50,953 nt of DNA, taken from Escherichia phage Lys8385Vzw. Numbering within the stretch: the stretch's first letter is position 1; each line of letters opens with the position of its first letter. Position numbers: made by a program. The DNA lies in the sequence record MT225100. The stretch is one strand, 5' to 3'. Shown here piece after piece: positions 33,001 to 36,000 of this stretch.

Positions 33001-36000
33001 TATAAACCCACTCTTCAGCATCTTCTTTCCTGACACCAGGCTCCGTCATTGTCCATGAACCCGCCTGAACCCACGAGATTAGGGGGACTTTTTTAACTGC
33101 GAATATTTCAGGTTTTAGATTTATCTTTGGTTCAGGCGAGCCTTTTCCGCTAACAAGCCACAGAGGATCGCATTTAAGTGCGTTGGCTAGGGCTTGAAGG
33201 TTGGCTCCATTTGGTTGGTAGTCGTCCTTTTCCCATCCAGTAACCGTGACACGGTTCACACCAGTCAAATCAGCCAGTGCTTGTTGTGTCAGGTTCAGTT
33301 CTTTTCGCCTTTGGCGAATACGATCACTCATGTTCATCATGTAGGCAATCCTACCACATGCCCATGTAGGATTCTTGACATTGGCATGTTGGATATCCTA
33401 CATTTCTGCTTAACGTAATTTAACGGGAGACAGAAATGCGGAAATCCGACGTGATTAATTATTTCGGCGGAGTTTGTAAAACCGCCGAAGCCCTAGGTAT
33501 TAAGCATCCGTCTGTTTCAGAGTGGCCTGAGATTATTCCTGAAGGCCGAGCGTACCAGTTAGAAAAAATTACTAACGGGAAACTGAAAGTTGACGTGTCT
33601 TTATATCAAAAGACTAACAGTGCTGCGGCATAAAAACACCACAGAAATGAGGAATTAACCGTGGGTAAAGAACCTGAATGGAAAGTTGATAAACAACCAG
33701 CATGGCTGGTGGCAGCAATACGAAGAACGATTGCTGATTTACCTCATGGCTATGAGGAAGCAGCAGAAATTCTTGGTTTGTATAAATCTGATGATATCAC
33801 CCCAGCAAAAGATCAATTGCATAACAGACTGCGTAGCGGTGGGGATCAAATTTTTCCACTTGAGTGGACCATGGTTTTACAGGATGCCAGTGGTACCAGG
33901 CATGTAACAGATGCAATAGCCCGTCGTAGTAATGGGGTGTTTGTGCCGCTGGTGGTCATTGATGACATTGACAATGGTGACATTAATCAGCGGCTGATGG
34001 AGTCAATAGAATGGATTGGCAAGCATTCCCAGTACTTACGCAAGGCAACTGCTGATGGAGTTATTGACCAGGCTGAGCGTGAGCAAATCGAAGAGAACAG
34101 CTACCAAGTAATGGCGAAGTGGCAGGAGCATTTAACACTGTTATTTCGTGTTTTTTGTGCGCCGGAAAAGAGTAACGCCCGCGAGTGTGCAGCTCCGGGC
34201 GTCGTGGCGTCGATTGCTTCTGGTTGTGGAGAAACTAACGCATGAACAGTTTAACGGCAAATAACCGTTTGTCGCAACAGCTGGTGGTCAGTGTCGCTGA
34301 ACACCTGTTGTTACGGCATGAATGCAGATTACCAAATCACCAGGCTGTAAGTAACCACAGAGAACTTTACCTGACTGTGGGGGGCGAGTTGTGCAGGAAC
34401 TTAACCGCTGGTTTCGTGACGGAAGAGGGCTTTATGTCCATGTTATTCGTTGGGAGCCAGAAACACAGCGCGTTATCTATCTTCGCAAAGACTACCCGCA
34501 TGAGTGCTTTAGTCCTTTGTGGAAATTCAGGCGTGATTTTGTTGAGTGTGAAGGACCACCAGCATATTGATTCTGCAATTCCGGGACGTTACACTGCTCA
34601 GGCACCTTATAAAGCGGGTGCCGGGATTGGCGTCCTGAAATTCGCACATGCGCATAACCGCGCTTCAGCGGTTTTTTTGCGCACGTTTCCTCACATCCAA
34701 ATTATGGTGGGGCGTGCAGGGGCATCGAAAGATGCGCCGGGGTCATGTGCGACCGGTTACGCCAACCCTGTACGTCTCACCACCTCTGTGATTGGCGTCC
34801 CATGTGGTGAGTTTTCAAAATTCGCACATGAGGATGTCACTATGGCAACCACCCCTACCCAAACTCACCCTAAAATTGATGTTATCCATGGGAAGGCTGT
34901 TACCTCTTCTTTGGCCGTTGCCGAATATTTCTGCAAGCAGCACAAAAACGTTATTCAAAAAATCCAGACGCTTGAGTGCTCTGTTGAATTCACTGAGCTG
35001 AATTTTCAGCCCAGTGATTACACCGATTGCACAGGCCGCAAACTCCCTTGTTACCAAATCACCCGCGACGGTTTTGCGTTTCTTGCCATGGGCTTCACGG
35101 GTAAACGTGCTGCCCAGTTCAAAGAGGCATACATCAATGCCTTTAACCAGATGGAGAAACAGCTTTCAAAGCCCTCTGTACCGAGCGACGTTGCACATAA
35201 CGCCAGCGTTCTCTATTCCTACATTTCATCAATTCATCAGGTCTGGTTGCAGCAGCTTTATCCCATGCTGGAAAAAGCTGAATCACCGCTGGCTGTAAGT
35301 CTGTATGACCGAATTAACGATGCGGCATTTCTTGCCCGTCTTATTCATTCGTCGCTGAACTCTTCAGAGGTAAGGGGGCGCAAATGATCCGGAATATTTT
35401 CAAACGATTTACCAATCAGACTTTCCGTTGTCCTCGCCCCGGTCAGTGGTACACCACGCCTGCAGGGCATGTTCTACGTGTTAGCCTGGTGGACCGTGAA
35501 TGTCAGAAGGTGATTTGTGAACCGCTTGGTCGTAATTACCGCGTCAGTATGCCGCTTATAGCCTTTCGCTCCGGAAAAAACATGAAGCATCTCGGAGGTG
35601 CAGCATGAGTATGGAGCTGATGGTTAAAGCGATGAAAATTCGAGTGGGTAATCCATTGCGAAAACTGGTTCTGATCAAGCTGGCTGATAATGCCAGCGAT
35701 CAGGGTGAGTGCTGGCCCAGCTACCAGCATATTGCTGACCAGTGCGAGATTAGCAAACGTTCTGTGATGAATCATATTGCGGCCCTTTGTGAGTCCGGGC
35801 TGGTAAAAAAAGTCACCCGGAAAGGTGAAAAAGGTAACTCAAGTAATATCTATCTCCTTCATCTGGATGGTGCAGGAGATTCACTAGGGGGTAGTGCAAA
35901 TAATTCACTATCTGGTGCAGCAAATTCACCAGGTAGTGCAGGAGTTGCACCAGGGGGTAGTGCAGGAGATTCACCCAGAACCAGTCACTCTTTTGAACCA

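What the first reader, a model, noticed from the sequence alone, without database searches (positions are those of the whole stretch)
34246..34841. About 600 bp between the cII-position gene and Rha with doubtful coding: terminator-like hairpin and repeated AAATTCGCACATG
The ORF track fuses this region to Rha as a 381-aa protein, but the Rha domain clearly begins at Met 34842. The upstream part contains a hairpin with T-run (aaccgcgcttcagcggttttttt, about 34655-34680), two copies of aaattcgcacatg (about 34638 and 34816), and a possible 59-aa GTG-initiated ORF (about 34391-34570, manual reading). Likely a regulatory or terminator region (tR1-like) or small-protein locus.
Basis: seen in the sequence. 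Interest (0 to 1): 0.4.

Follow-up and report, generated by a model that had tools for sequence, protein, structure and literature searches.

The report
Antisense-RNA switch guarding a phage antirepressor
The 600 bases upstream of Rha in this Shiga-toxin prophage hold a small DUF4222 protein gene and a known P1/P4/Gifsy-1-type pair of small RNAs (IsrK and C4) that very probably hold back the Rha antirepressor, and the long reading frame across them is probably kept open on purpose rather than being an annotation error.

Summary
The hairpin with its T-run (34656-34680), the two exact AAATTCGCACATG copies (34638, 34818) and the 59-aa GTG ORF (34391-34570) are all present.

They are not a lambda tR1. 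Rfam places isrK at 34602-34678, where the hairpin is its terminator. It places the C4 antisense RNA at 34700-34787. Both score above their gathering thresholds.

The repeats are the C4 target sites: a1/b1 inside IsrK, and a2/b2 abutting the Shine-Dalgarno sequence of rha (ATG 34842). Across 25 related loci the C4 loops and both target sets co-vary, with at least 8 a' variants and at least 22 b' variants.

The 59-aa ORF is a real DUF4222 gene. Between two diverged versions, 27 of 40 substitutions fall at third codon positions.

The 381-aa ORF has the same layout as phage P4 eta/kil. It starts on the upstream gene's stop (ATGA), crosses the promoter, terminator and C4, and is in frame with the nested gene. 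In 12 of 13 loci embedded in the early-right operon this frame has no stops and all indels are 3 nt. All 13 loci in other contexts have stops.

The Pfam "Ash domain" is the translation of these RNA genes.

Verdict: a new member of a known kind, moderately interesting.

The parts
34242..35387 (+). Long ORF of 381 codons: a 200-codon 'Ash'/eta-like leader fused in frame to Rha. Its ATG overlaps the ymfL stop (gcATGAac). Its own stop overlaps the ATG of the next gene at 35384.
   Evidence: ORF list. Annotated as a single CDS in RefSeq. Leader residues 117-197 match Pfam PF10554 Phage_ASH. The frame is stop-free in 12 of 13 operon-embedded loci and in 0 of 13 other loci. P4 eta has the same layout.
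34391..34570 (+). DUF4222 small-protein gene: 59 aa, GTG start, in a different frame from the long ORF. Its TGA stop (34568-34570) overlaps the -35 hexamer of the IsrK promoter.
   Evidence: Pfam DUF4222 E = 9.4e-14 and phrog_1343 E = 1.9e-36. Compared with locus L007 there are 40 nt differences, 27 at the third codon position. Amino-acid identity is 51/60 in this frame against 30/59 in the long-ORF frame.
34567..34595 (+). Predicted sigma-70 promoter of IsrK/C4: -35 TTGATT at 34567-34572, a 17-nt spacer, -10 TACACT at 34590-34595. The transcription start would be near G34602.
   Evidence: Read directly from the sequence. It matches 8 of 12 consensus positions, so it fell below the scan threshold. 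The hexamer positions are conserved in the 13-locus alignment, including Gifsy-1, where the isrK promoter was shown experimentally (PMC4825925). Position 1 of the Rfam isrK model falls on 34602.
34602..34678 (+). IsrK / P4 seqA-type small RNA. It carries target sites a1 (GATTGGCGTCC, 34625-34635) and b1 (AAATTCGCACATG, 34638-34650) and ends in the intrinsic terminator at 34656-34680.
   Evidence: Rfam RF01394: 62.3 bits against a gathering score of 50, full-length match. Repeats. Terminator.
34700..34787 (+). C4-type antisense RNA (P1 C4, P4 CI, Salmonella STnc1160). The b' loop is at 34741-34752 with core TCATGTGCGA at 34743-34752. The a' junction ACGCCAA is at 34759-34765. An internal ATG at 34704, the counterpart of the Gifsy-1 orf45 start, is in frame with rha.
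   Evidence: Rfam RF01695: 75.1 bits against a gathering score of 45, full-length match. MFE -46.5 kcal/mol, z = -5.1. In 26 sequences, 15 of 27 base pairs show compensatory double changes. Loop-to-target complementarity (I11).
34790..34844 (+). Translation-initiation region of rha with target sites a2 (GATTGGCGTCC, 34790-34800) and b2 (TCGCACATGA, 34822-34831). b2 overlaps the Shine-Dalgarno GAGGA (34830-34834). The ATG is at 34842-34844.
   Evidence: The 10-nt b2 is an exact complement of the C4 b' loop (I11). a2 holds a 7-nt exact complement of a'. The same relation holds in 25 of 25 loci with different sequences.
34842..35387 (+). Rha-family regulator / antirepressor-type protein of 181 aa. 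It is the cargo gene controlled by the cassette and is nested in the long ORF.
   Evidence: Pfam Phage_pRha E = 6.6e-33 over residues 21-106. PHROG anti-repressor and Rha families also match. TIGR02681 matches.

Best explanation
The interval is an RNA-based control cassette for the Rha antirepressor-type gene. It is homologous to P4 seqA-CI-seqC, to P1/P7 immI c4, and to Gifsy-1 isrK-orf45(STnc1160)-anrP. It sits inside the early-right operon of an Stx1a prophage.

Shown here:
- A DUF4222 gene lies at 34391-34570.
- IsrK lies at 34602-34678, with sites a1/b1 and an intrinsic terminator.
- C4 lies at 34700-34787, with loops a'/b'.
- The same sites recur as a2/b2 on the rha ribosome-binding site.

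Inferred from the homologous systems, for the lysogen:
- With cI shutting off PR, the internal promoter (TTGATT-17-TACACT) makes mostly the 77-nt IsrK.
- A fraction of transcripts reads through the terminator and is processed to C4. RNase P does this in P1 and P4.
- C4 pairs with a2/b2 and hides the Shine-Dalgarno sequence, so Rha is not made.
- C4 pairing with a1/b1, in cis or on free IsrK, sets the balance. In Gifsy-1, excess IsrK titrates this pairing and turns translation on.
- The sequences of a and b differ between phages, which gives each cassette its own specificity.

Inferred with about 0.5 confidence, from the P4 eta/kil precedent and from the frame statistics:
- When PR fires, ribosomes leaving ymfL restart at the overlapping ATG 34242.
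- They translate the long ORF across the promoter, the terminator, C4 and a2/b2.
- This prevents the terminator and the antisense pairings from forming.
- Transcription therefore continues into rha and the replication genes regardless of C4.

The confidence of 0.8 given for this explanation applies to the identity of the cassette and to antisense control of rha. The translated-bridge step stands at about 0.5.
For: Family matches. Both Rfam hits are full length and above gathering score in the window. The isrK + C4 tandem recurs in all 12 related loci scanned with Rfam, including Gifsy-1, and in P4 in a separate scan.

Structure. The C4 fold is supported by 15 of 27 pairs with compensatory changes.

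Three-way covariation. a' is an exact 7-nt complement of both a1 and a2 in 25 of 25 loci, across at least 8 a' variants. There are at least 22 b' variants, with cognate complements of 6-10 nt in most loci. Mean predicted pairing energy is -23.3 kcal/mol for cognate pairs and -15.4 for non-cognate pairs.

Ribosome-binding site. b2 overlaps the rha Shine-Dalgarno sequence.

Experimental precedent. In Gifsy-1 the isrK promoter drives anrP transcription, translation is off, and IsrK supplied in trans turns it on about 100-fold (PMC4825925). P4 eta/kil and CI/seqA are summarised in PMC10111431. The equivalence of IsrK/C4 with seqA/CI is stated in PMC3632133.

Long ORF.
- In 12 distinct operon-embedded sequences (162 of 288 alignment columns vary) there are 0 stop sites in the rha frame, against 14 and 13 distinct stop sites in the other two frames (binomial P = 1.8e-5).
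- All three indel blocks are 3 nt long.
- The frame is open in 12 of 13 operon-embedded loci and 0 of 13 others (Fisher P = 2.7e-6).
- The probability that the overlapping frame of the DUF4222 gene is stop-free, given its protein sequence, is about 0.04, yet it is stop-free in both diverged versions.
- The ORF is one link in an unbroken chain of start/stop overlaps (4 nt at six junctions, 1 nt at one) from ymfL to rusA.
- P4 eta also starts on an ATGA overlap, and kil begins ...EAAIMATT, as in the window's relatives.
Against: - No transcript, processing or translation data exist for this phage. The transcription start, the RNase P processing and the repression of rha are inferred by homology.
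- The promoter matches only 8 of 12 consensus positions and was not reported by the scan.
- The loci compared are related, so the P values overstate independence.
- One operon-embedded locus (L021) does have stops in the frame. It is also frameshifted in rha and orf74, which suggests a decayed or error-prone contig.
- The leader's amino-acid sequence is not conserved. It changes with RNA compensatory substitutions, so any role of the long ORF would lie in the act of translation, not in the peptide.
- The leader would have to be translated across a 180-nt gene that is read in another frame.
- The P1/P4 model (C4 represses in trans) and the Gifsy-1 model (cis-inactive fold opened by IsrK) differ in detail, and I cannot choose between them here.
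Confidence: 0.8

Rival explanations
1. The cassette is purely non-coding and the long ORF is an artefact. Only the DUF4222 gene and the 181-aa Rha are translated. The 381-aa ORF is open by chance and by inheritance, and gene callers extend it.
For: The sequence conservation in 34602-34841 is explained by RNA structure and antisense pairing. The leader peptide is not conserved at the amino-acid level. Upstream, the frame under purifying selection is that of DUF4222. Pfam 'Ash' also matches the obsolete P4 'cI protein' ORF, which lies over an RNA gene. In Gifsy-1, Sakai and other contexts the frame is interrupted and, at least in Gifsy-1, the system works (PMC4825925).
Against: There are 0 stop sites in the rha frame against 14 and 13 in the other frames, among 12 diverged operon-embedded sequences. 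All indels there are 3 nt. Openness is associated with context: 12 of 13 against 0 of 13. ATGA coupling is present at both ends of the ORF. In P4, eta has the same layout and its translation is reported to prevent termination (PMC10111431 citing Forti 1999).
Confidence: 0.3
2. This is a lambda-like tR1 terminator region. The hairpin attenuates PR transcription and is overcome by an N/nut-type antitermination system.
For: The position matches: downstream of cro and the cII-position gene and upstream of the replication genes. A genuine intrinsic-terminator motif is present.
Against: The hairpin is the terminator stem of a full-length isrK match. No boxA-like sequence lies on the + strand between 33400 and 35000. 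No N-like gene is annotated in the early regions; the only antiterminator annotated is Q-like, at the late-gene position. The same hairpin travels with C4 and its targets into unrelated genomic contexts: the nin region, downstream of Q, and P4.
Confidence: 0.05
3. The 381-aa product is a true two-domain Ash-Rha protein, and its N-terminal 'Ash domain' has a function as a folded protein.
For: Pfam PF10554 matches above its threshold. More than 1,300 database proteins, many named 'ash family protein', share the leader. The Stx-phage literature treats Rha/Ash as a protein architecture (PMC8951638).
Against: The 'domain' coincides base for base with two RNA genes. Its residues change radically wherever the RNA makes compensatory substitutions or switches specificity. 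The same leader is fused to unrelated cargo proteins: Rha, a 77-aa Icd-like protein, and a 120-aa protein. In other contexts the frame is broken while the RNAs are intact.
Confidence: 0.07

Closest known systems
Satellite phage P4 immunity region (PLE - seqA - CI RNA - seqC - kil nested in eta)
   Same: - Rfam isrK and C4 both hit P4, at 8615-8692 and 8420-8507.
- The long ORF (eta) starts on an ATGA overlap with the upstream gene.
- It runs through the constitutive promoter, seqA with its terminator, CI and seqC.
- It is in frame with the nested downstream gene, whose start context is ...GGAGGCTGCCATCATGGCTAC / EAAIMATT, as in the window's relatives.
- The published mechanism is that translation of eta from the upstream promoter prevents termination (PMC10111431).
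   Different: - The cargo here is a 181-aa Rha regulator, not the 65-aa Icd-like Kil.
- The upstream promoter is a cI-controlled PR of a lambdoid Stx phage, not P4 PLL.
- Here the cassette is auxiliary to a protein repressor, not the primary immunity.
- The leader is about 120 codons longer and overlaps a DUF4222 gene.
Gifsy-1 isrK - orf45 (STnc1160) - anrP locus of Salmonella
   Same: - It has the same tandem of isrK and C4 followed by an antirepressor-like gene.
- The ATTATGG start inside C4 is conserved.
- Published experiments show the promoter, terminator read-through, translational silence, and activation by IsrK supplied in trans (PMC4825925).
   Different: - In Gifsy-1 the cassette lies downstream of antQ.
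- There, orf45 is a separate 45-codon ORF in another frame, ending on the anrP start.
- In the window that ATG is in frame with rha with no stop, and the frame stays open 154 codons further upstream.
Phage P1/P7 immI operon (a1 b1 - c4 - a2 b2 - icd - ant1/2)
   Same: - The C4 antisense RNA family is the same (Rfam RF01695, which the motif's authors tie to the P1/P7 c4 work of Citron and Schuster 1990).
- There are two target pairs, one upstream and one downstream of the RNA gene.
- The downstream pair lies at the ribosome-binding site of the first translated gene.
- The cargo is an antirepressor.
- Sequence variation in a/b sets the specificity (P1 versus P7; from established knowledge).
   Different: - P1 has icd between the targets and ant.
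- No P1 sequence was examined here, so this comparison rests on the literature and on the Rfam model.
- P1 immI is not embedded in a repressor-controlled early operon the way this cassette is.
Lambda tR1 / nutR region
   Same: Only the map position matches: between cro/cII and the replication genes. Both contain a terminator.
   Different: tR1 is Rho-dependent and is overcome by N at nutR. Here the terminator is intrinsic, belongs to a small RNA with its own promoter, and no boxA or N gene was found.

Membership tests
Rfam RF01695 C4 antisense RNA (clan CL00128) | Covariance-model score at or above the gathering threshold over the full model | tested here: met
   75.1 bits against 45, model positions 1-87 of 87, at 34700-34787.
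Rfam RF01695 C4 antisense RNA (clan CL00128) | A long closing stem enclosing two hairpins, supported by covariation | tested here: met
   Among 26 sequences, 27 consensus pairs are predicted and 15 show changes on both sides. The window copy folds at -46.5 kcal/mol, z = -5.1.
P1/P4-type antisense immunity (C4/CI with flanking targets) | Single-stranded elements a' and b' are complementary to one target pair upstream and one downstream of the RNA gene | tested here: met
   In the window, a' has 7 nt complementary to both a1 and a2. b' has 9 nt complementary to b1 and 10 nt to b2. The relation co-varies in 25 of 25 loci.
P1/P4-type antisense immunity (C4/CI with flanking targets) | The downstream target overlaps the ribosome-binding site of the first gene | tested here: met
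   b2 at 34822-34831 overlaps the GAGGA at 34830-34834, 7 nt before ATG 34842.
P1/P4-type antisense immunity (C4/CI with flanking targets) | The mature RNA is released from a longer transcript by RNase P and represses in trans | not testable with these tools
   Known for P1 C4 and P4 CI from the literature. No expression data exist for this phage.
Rfam RF01394 isrK (= P4 seqA RNA) | Score at or above gathering, 5' hairpins carrying a1/b1, and a Rho-independent terminator at the 3' end | tested here: met
   62.3 bits against 50, full model, at 34602-34678. Terminator motif at 34656-34680.
Rfam RF01394 isrK (= P4 seqA RNA) | Its own promoter immediately upstream | tested here: inconclusive
   TTGATT-17-TACACT is correctly placed for a start at 34602, and the hexamer positions are conserved across loci. 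It matches only 8 of 12 positions and was not reported by the scan. It has been shown experimentally only in Gifsy-1.
Rfam RF03163 c4-a1b1 | Score at or above the gathering threshold | tested here: not met
   22.5 bits against 46.7 at 34589-34641. The same bases are covered by the isrK match. Relatives score 40-50 bits.
P4 eta/kil-type nested genes | A long ORF that starts upstream of the constitutive promoter, is coupled to the upstream gene, crosses seqA/CI/seqC and is in frame with the downstream gene | tested here: met
   ATG 34242 overlaps the ymfL stop. There is no stop before 35387. rha ATG 34842 is in the same frame. P4 was compared.
P4 eta/kil-type nested genes | Translation of the long ORF prevents termination and makes expression insensitive to the antisense RNA | not testable with these tools
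   Only indirect support is available: context-specific absence of stops and 3-nt indels.
Pfam PF13973 DUF4222 | HMM score above the cut-off, and a coding signature | tested here: met
   51.1 bits against 27. 27 of 40 substitutions fall at third codon positions.
Pfam PF10554 Phage_ASH | HMM score above the cut-off | tested here: met
   43.2 bits against 26, over leader residues 117-197, which is nt 34590-34832. The matched stretch is the translation of isrK + C4, so membership says nothing about a protein function.
Lambda nutR/tR1 | A boxA (CGCTCTTA-like) and boxB upstream of the terminator, and an N gene | tested here: not met
   No boxA-like match on the + strand between cro and the terminator, even with one mismatch allowed. 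No N gene is annotated.

The most novel reading that the evidence does not exclude
The 'Ash' leader is a translated bridge. Wherever an IsrK-C4 cassette is inserted into a translationally coupled early operon of a lambdoid or Stx phage, selection keeps one frame open across a promoter, an intrinsic terminator, an antisense RNA gene and even an overlapping DUF4222 gene. Ribosomes arriving from PR then erase the cassette's own terminator and antisense control. This would be an N-independent, translation-driven antitermination. The same DNA would be read as RNA regulators in the lysogen and as a sacrificial ORF during lytic growth. It would extend the P4 eta mechanism to a widespread class of Shiga-toxin phages, where 'Rha/Ash' is currently listed as a protein of unknown function.
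Probability: 0.5. Interest if true: 0.55.

Novelty: new member of a known kind. Interest (0 to 1): 0.4.

Why it matters
The window is an Stx1a-converting prophage of E. coli O103. Toxin release follows prophage induction, so any second layer of control over an antirepressor-type gene next to cI/cro bears on when such phages switch.

A survey of Stx-phage regulatory regions describes 'Rha/Ash' proteins and states that no function is assigned to the Ash domain (PMC8951638). This analysis shows that the 'domain' is the translation of two known regulatory RNA genes with phage-specific targets.

That has three practical uses:
- It corrects the annotation. RefSeq gives one 381-aa CDS, no RNA genes, and does not call the DUF4222 gene.
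- It predicts RNA-based specificity groups among co-resident prophages.
- It gives a testable mechanism for how early transcription passes an intrinsic terminator in phages that lack N.

Tried and rejected
- Exact-pattern scans for the C4 5' half returned only 2 loci from viral contigs, 4 from species-representative genomes and 2 from metagenome contigs. One of the genome hits was a chance hit in an archaeal MAG. Most comparison loci therefore came from BLAST against GenBank phages.
- I considered that the G6 run at 34376-34381 might be a frameshift joining the 34242 ORF to the 59-aa ORF. I rejected this. The run is identical in all relatives, and in L007 the DUF4222 gene has its own ATG with a different upstream sequence.
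- I looked for a structured RNA in 34236-34400. The fold is not better than shuffled sequence (z = -0.87), Rfam finds nothing, and Pfam and PHROGs find nothing for the first 50 codons.
- The a2-b2 segment of the window folds on itself and buries the Shine-Dalgarno sequence (-26.3 kcal/mol, z = -4.3). A consensus fold over 20 loci gave only 6 invariant pairs with no covariation, so I do not claim it as a conserved element.
- tR1/nut was rejected.
- The Forti et al. 1999 paper on P4 eta/kil is not held in the library. Its content is taken from the summary in PMC10111431.
- P1 itself was not fetched, so the P1 comparison rests on the literature.
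Full report
**1. What is there**

The window matches, at 100% identity, an Stx1a-converting prophage of E. coli O103 strain RM8385. Around the finding the gene order is:
- a LexA-family cI repressor at 32687-33340 on the minus strand;
- a PR-like promoter at 33375-33404;
- cro at 33436-33633;
- a YmfL-family gene in the cII position at 33661-34245, with a weak Phage_CP76 match;
- the interval in question;
- Rha, a 74-aa ORF, and then a replication protein.

RefSeq annotates 34242-35387 as a single 381-aa 'Rha family' CDS.

- The hairpin and T-run lie at 34656-34680.
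- The 13-mer AAATTCGCACATG occurs exactly twice in the window, at 34638 and 34818. About 0.16 matches are expected by chance even with one mismatch allowed.
- The 59-aa GTG ORF lies at 34391-34570.

A second repeat, GATTGGCGTCC at 34625 and 34790, accompanies the first.

**2. The RNA genes**

An Rfam scan gives two full-length matches above their gathering scores:
- isrK (RF01394) at 34602-34678, 62.3 bits against 50;
- C4 antisense RNA (RF01695) at 34700-34787, 75.1 bits against 45.

Its first repeat copy lies inside IsrK. The c4-a1b1 model also matches there, but below threshold.

In the C4 consensus structure the second hairpin loop (b') is GGUCAUGUGCGA, and the 3' junction (a') contains ACGCCAA. 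Their targets are as follows:
- TCATGTGCGA (34743-34752) is the exact reverse complement of TCGCACATGA (34822-34831) in the second repeat copy (pair I11).
- That target runs into the Shine-Dalgarno GAGGA (34830-34834), 7 nt before the rha ATG at 34842.
- ACGCCAA is complementary to TTGGCGT in both copies of GATTGGCGTCC.

So the repeats are the target pairs a1/b1 (upstream, inside IsrK) and a2/b2 (downstream, on the rha ribosome-binding site). This is the arrangement known for P1/P7 c4.

**3. Comparative evidence**

I collected 25 related loci from GenBank phages and from a few genome and metagenome contigs.

The isrK + C4 tandem is present in all 12 loci scanned with Rfam, including Gifsy-1, VT2-Sakai and phiP27. 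It is also present in P4.

The C4 fold is supported by covariation: of 27 consensus pairs, 15 have changes on both sides.

The decisive result is three-way covariation between C4 and its targets:
- In 25 of 25 loci, a' is an exact 7-nt complement of both a1 and a2, although a' takes at least 8 different sequences.
- The b' loop takes at least 22 sequences. In most loci b2, and usually b1, hold a complement of 6-10 nt; in a few the match is only 4-5 nt.
- a and b types assort independently. For example, L006, L007, L010 and L011 carry different a/b combinations.
- Mean predicted pairing energy is -23.3 kcal/mol for cognate pairs and -15.4 for non-cognate pairs.

This is what a specificity-determining antisense system should look like. 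It rules out chance and rules out a simple terminator region.

**4. The small protein gene**

The 59-aa ORF is DUF4222 (Pfam E = 9.4e-14; phrog_1343 E = 1.9e-36).

Compared with the version in Stx1_EH1995 (L007) there are 40 differences in 180 nt. Of these, 27 fall at third codon positions. Amino-acid identity is 51/60 in this frame, against 30/59 in the frame of the long ORF. So this is a real gene under purifying selection.

Its TGA stop (34568-34570) overlaps the -35 hexamer of a promoter-like site: TTGATT, a 17-nt spacer, then TACACT (34567-34595). That site would start transcription at about 34602, which is position 1 of the isrK model. The hexamer positions are conserved across the loci, including Gifsy-1, where promoter activity was measured (PMC4825925). 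The site matches only 8 of 12 consensus positions and was not reported by the scan.

**5. The long ORF**

I first expected the 381-aa ORF to be an annotation artefact. Several results argue otherwise.

(a) Its ATG overlaps the ymfL stop (ATGA), and its stop overlaps the next ATG. It is one link in an unbroken chain of start/stop overlaps (4 nt at six junctions, 1 nt at one) from ymfL to rusA. Without it the early-right operon would have a gap of up to 596 nt, untranslated apart from the 59-codon DUF4222 gene and containing an intrinsic terminator.

(b) I defined a group of loci by context: the cassette is followed by orf74-like and repO-like genes. In 12 of these 13 loci the rha frame has no stop from the -35 hexamer to the rha ATG. 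The exception, L021, is also frameshifted in rha and orf74. In 13 of 13 loci from other contexts (nin region, downstream of Q, P2-like and other elements) the frame has 1-6 stops (Fisher P = 2.7e-6).

(c) Among the 12 open sequences, all are distinct and 162 of 288 alignment columns vary. The other two frames carry 14 and 13 distinct stop sites; the rha frame carries none (binomial P = 1.8e-5). The three indel blocks are each exactly 3 nt.

(d) Given the DUF4222 protein sequence and random synonymous codons, the overlapping frame would be stop-free only about 4% of the time. It is stop-free in both diverged versions.

The loci are related, so these P values overstate independence. The pattern is nevertheless consistent.

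**6. The precedent: P4 eta/kil**

Phage P4 has the same layout:
- A 214-codon ORF (eta) starts on an ATGA overlap with the upstream ORF88.
- It runs through seqA, which is matched by isrK at 8615-8692.
- It then runs through the CI RNA, which is matched by C4 at 8420-8507.
- It is in frame with the nested kil gene. The kil start context, GGAGGCTGCCATCATGGCTAC / EAAIMATT, is the same as in the window's relatives.

According to the summary of Forti et al. 1999 in PMC10111431:
- the constitutive promoter is internal to eta;
- its transcript is quickly terminated through CI/seqA interactions and is processed to CI;
- full-length Eta is translated only from the upstream promoter;
- eta is coupled to the upstream gene;
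- 'Eta translation prevents termination'.

The same paper notes that CI and seqA homologues occur inside Bro-network genes of satellites. Barquist et al. had already equated IsrK/C4 with seqA/CI and noted them in lambdoid Salmonella prophages (PMC3632133).

**7. Pfam 'Ash'**

Leader residues 117-197 (nt 34590-34832) match Pfam PF10554 Phage_ASH. The same family matches the obsolete P4 'cI protein' ORF exactly over the CI RNA gene.

More than 1,300 database proteins share the leader. Many are 278-aa 'ash family proteins', in which the nested cargo is a 77-aa Icd-like protein rather than Rha.

The leader's residues change radically wherever the RNA makes compensatory or specificity changes. The 'Ash domain' is therefore best read as the translation of RNA genes. 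A survey of Stx-phage regulatory regions reports Rha/Ash proteins and says no function is assigned to the Ash domain (PMC8951638).

**8. Mechanism**

Shown: the parts, their complementarity, and its covariation.

Inferred by homology with P1, P4 and Gifsy-1, for the lysogen:
- The internal promoter makes IsrK, terminated at 34680.
- Some transcripts read through and yield C4 after processing.
- C4 pairs with a2/b2 and blocks rha translation.
- Pairing with a1/b1, in cis or on free IsrK, modulates this. In Gifsy-1, IsrK supplied in trans raises anrP translation more than 100-fold.

Inferred with about 0.5 confidence:
- Transcripts from PR are translated continuously from ymfL through the leader.
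- This suppresses the terminator and the antisense control.
- Transcription therefore reaches rha and the replication genes.
- No N gene or boxA was found, which makes such a mechanism useful to this phage.

**9. Verdict**

The finding is real and functional, but it belongs to a known kind of system. Its 'tR1-like' and 'ORF artefact' readings are not supported.

The added value is threefold:
- a corrected annotation for a widespread Stx-phage module;
- recognition that the 'Ash domain' is two RNA genes;
- comparative evidence that the P4-type translated leader is maintained specifically where the cassette interrupts a coupled early operon.

Noticed in passing
window 43274-43548: Rfam finds STnc100 (43274-43487, + strand, 190.7 bits) and the anti-GcvB sRNA AgvB (43489-43548, - strand, 56.6 bits against a gathering score of 56). 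By offset from the RefSeq annotation, both lie immediately downstream of stxB1.
   Followed up: no
window 34590-34832; L016 (P4) 8330-8521: Pfam PF10554 (Phage_ASH) matches conceptual translations of the isrK + C4 RNA genes, including the obsolete P4 'cI protein' ORF. The family therefore appears to be built largely on translated non-coding RNA genes.
   Followed up: partly
window about 34222-34600: This is a mosaic junction. From TGTGGAGAAACTAACGCATGA (the last 20 or so bases of ymfL plus the start of the long ORF) through DUF4222 to the IsrK promoter, the DNA is almost identical in phages whose YmfL proteins are only about 54% identical. The RNA specificity segments downstream differ.
   Followed up: partly
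L002 2640-2873; L006 1782-2144; window 34842-35387: The same leader and RNA cassette is fused to different cargo genes in different phages: Rha of 181 aa here, a 77-aa protein in Ayreon and some Stx2c phages (Icd-like by a database name given to a homolog; its own NCBIfam scan found no family), and a 120-aa protein in phiP27-type phages.
   Followed up: partly
window 33661-38200 (L032 11126-15741): The early-right operon from ymfL to rusA is an unbroken chain of genes whose start and stop codons overlap, by 4 nt at six junctions and 1 nt at one. This suggests obligatory translational coupling along the whole operon.
   Followed up: no
L021 (metagenome contig VOFK01001446.1) 8256-8575, minus strand: This is the only copy in the early-operon context with stops in the leader frame. 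Its b' has only 4 nt complementary to its targets, and its rha and orf74 are split by frameshifts. It looks like a decayed cassette or a low-quality contig.
   Followed up: partly
window 34788-34850: The a2-b2 segment of this phage can fold on itself and bury the rha Shine-Dalgarno sequence (-26.3 kcal/mol, z = -4.3). No conserved hairpin emerges from 20 loci. Only the invariant GGTGGTGA after a2 stands out; it repeats the 5' strand of the C4 closing stem and could pair with the C4 3' strand.
   Followed up: partly
NZ_CP028112.1 (E. coli O103 RM8385 chromosome): The host chromosome has a second place matching the 2.3-kb query. Another prophage in the same cell may therefore carry a related cassette. 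Whether the two share a/b specificity was not examined.
   Followed up: no
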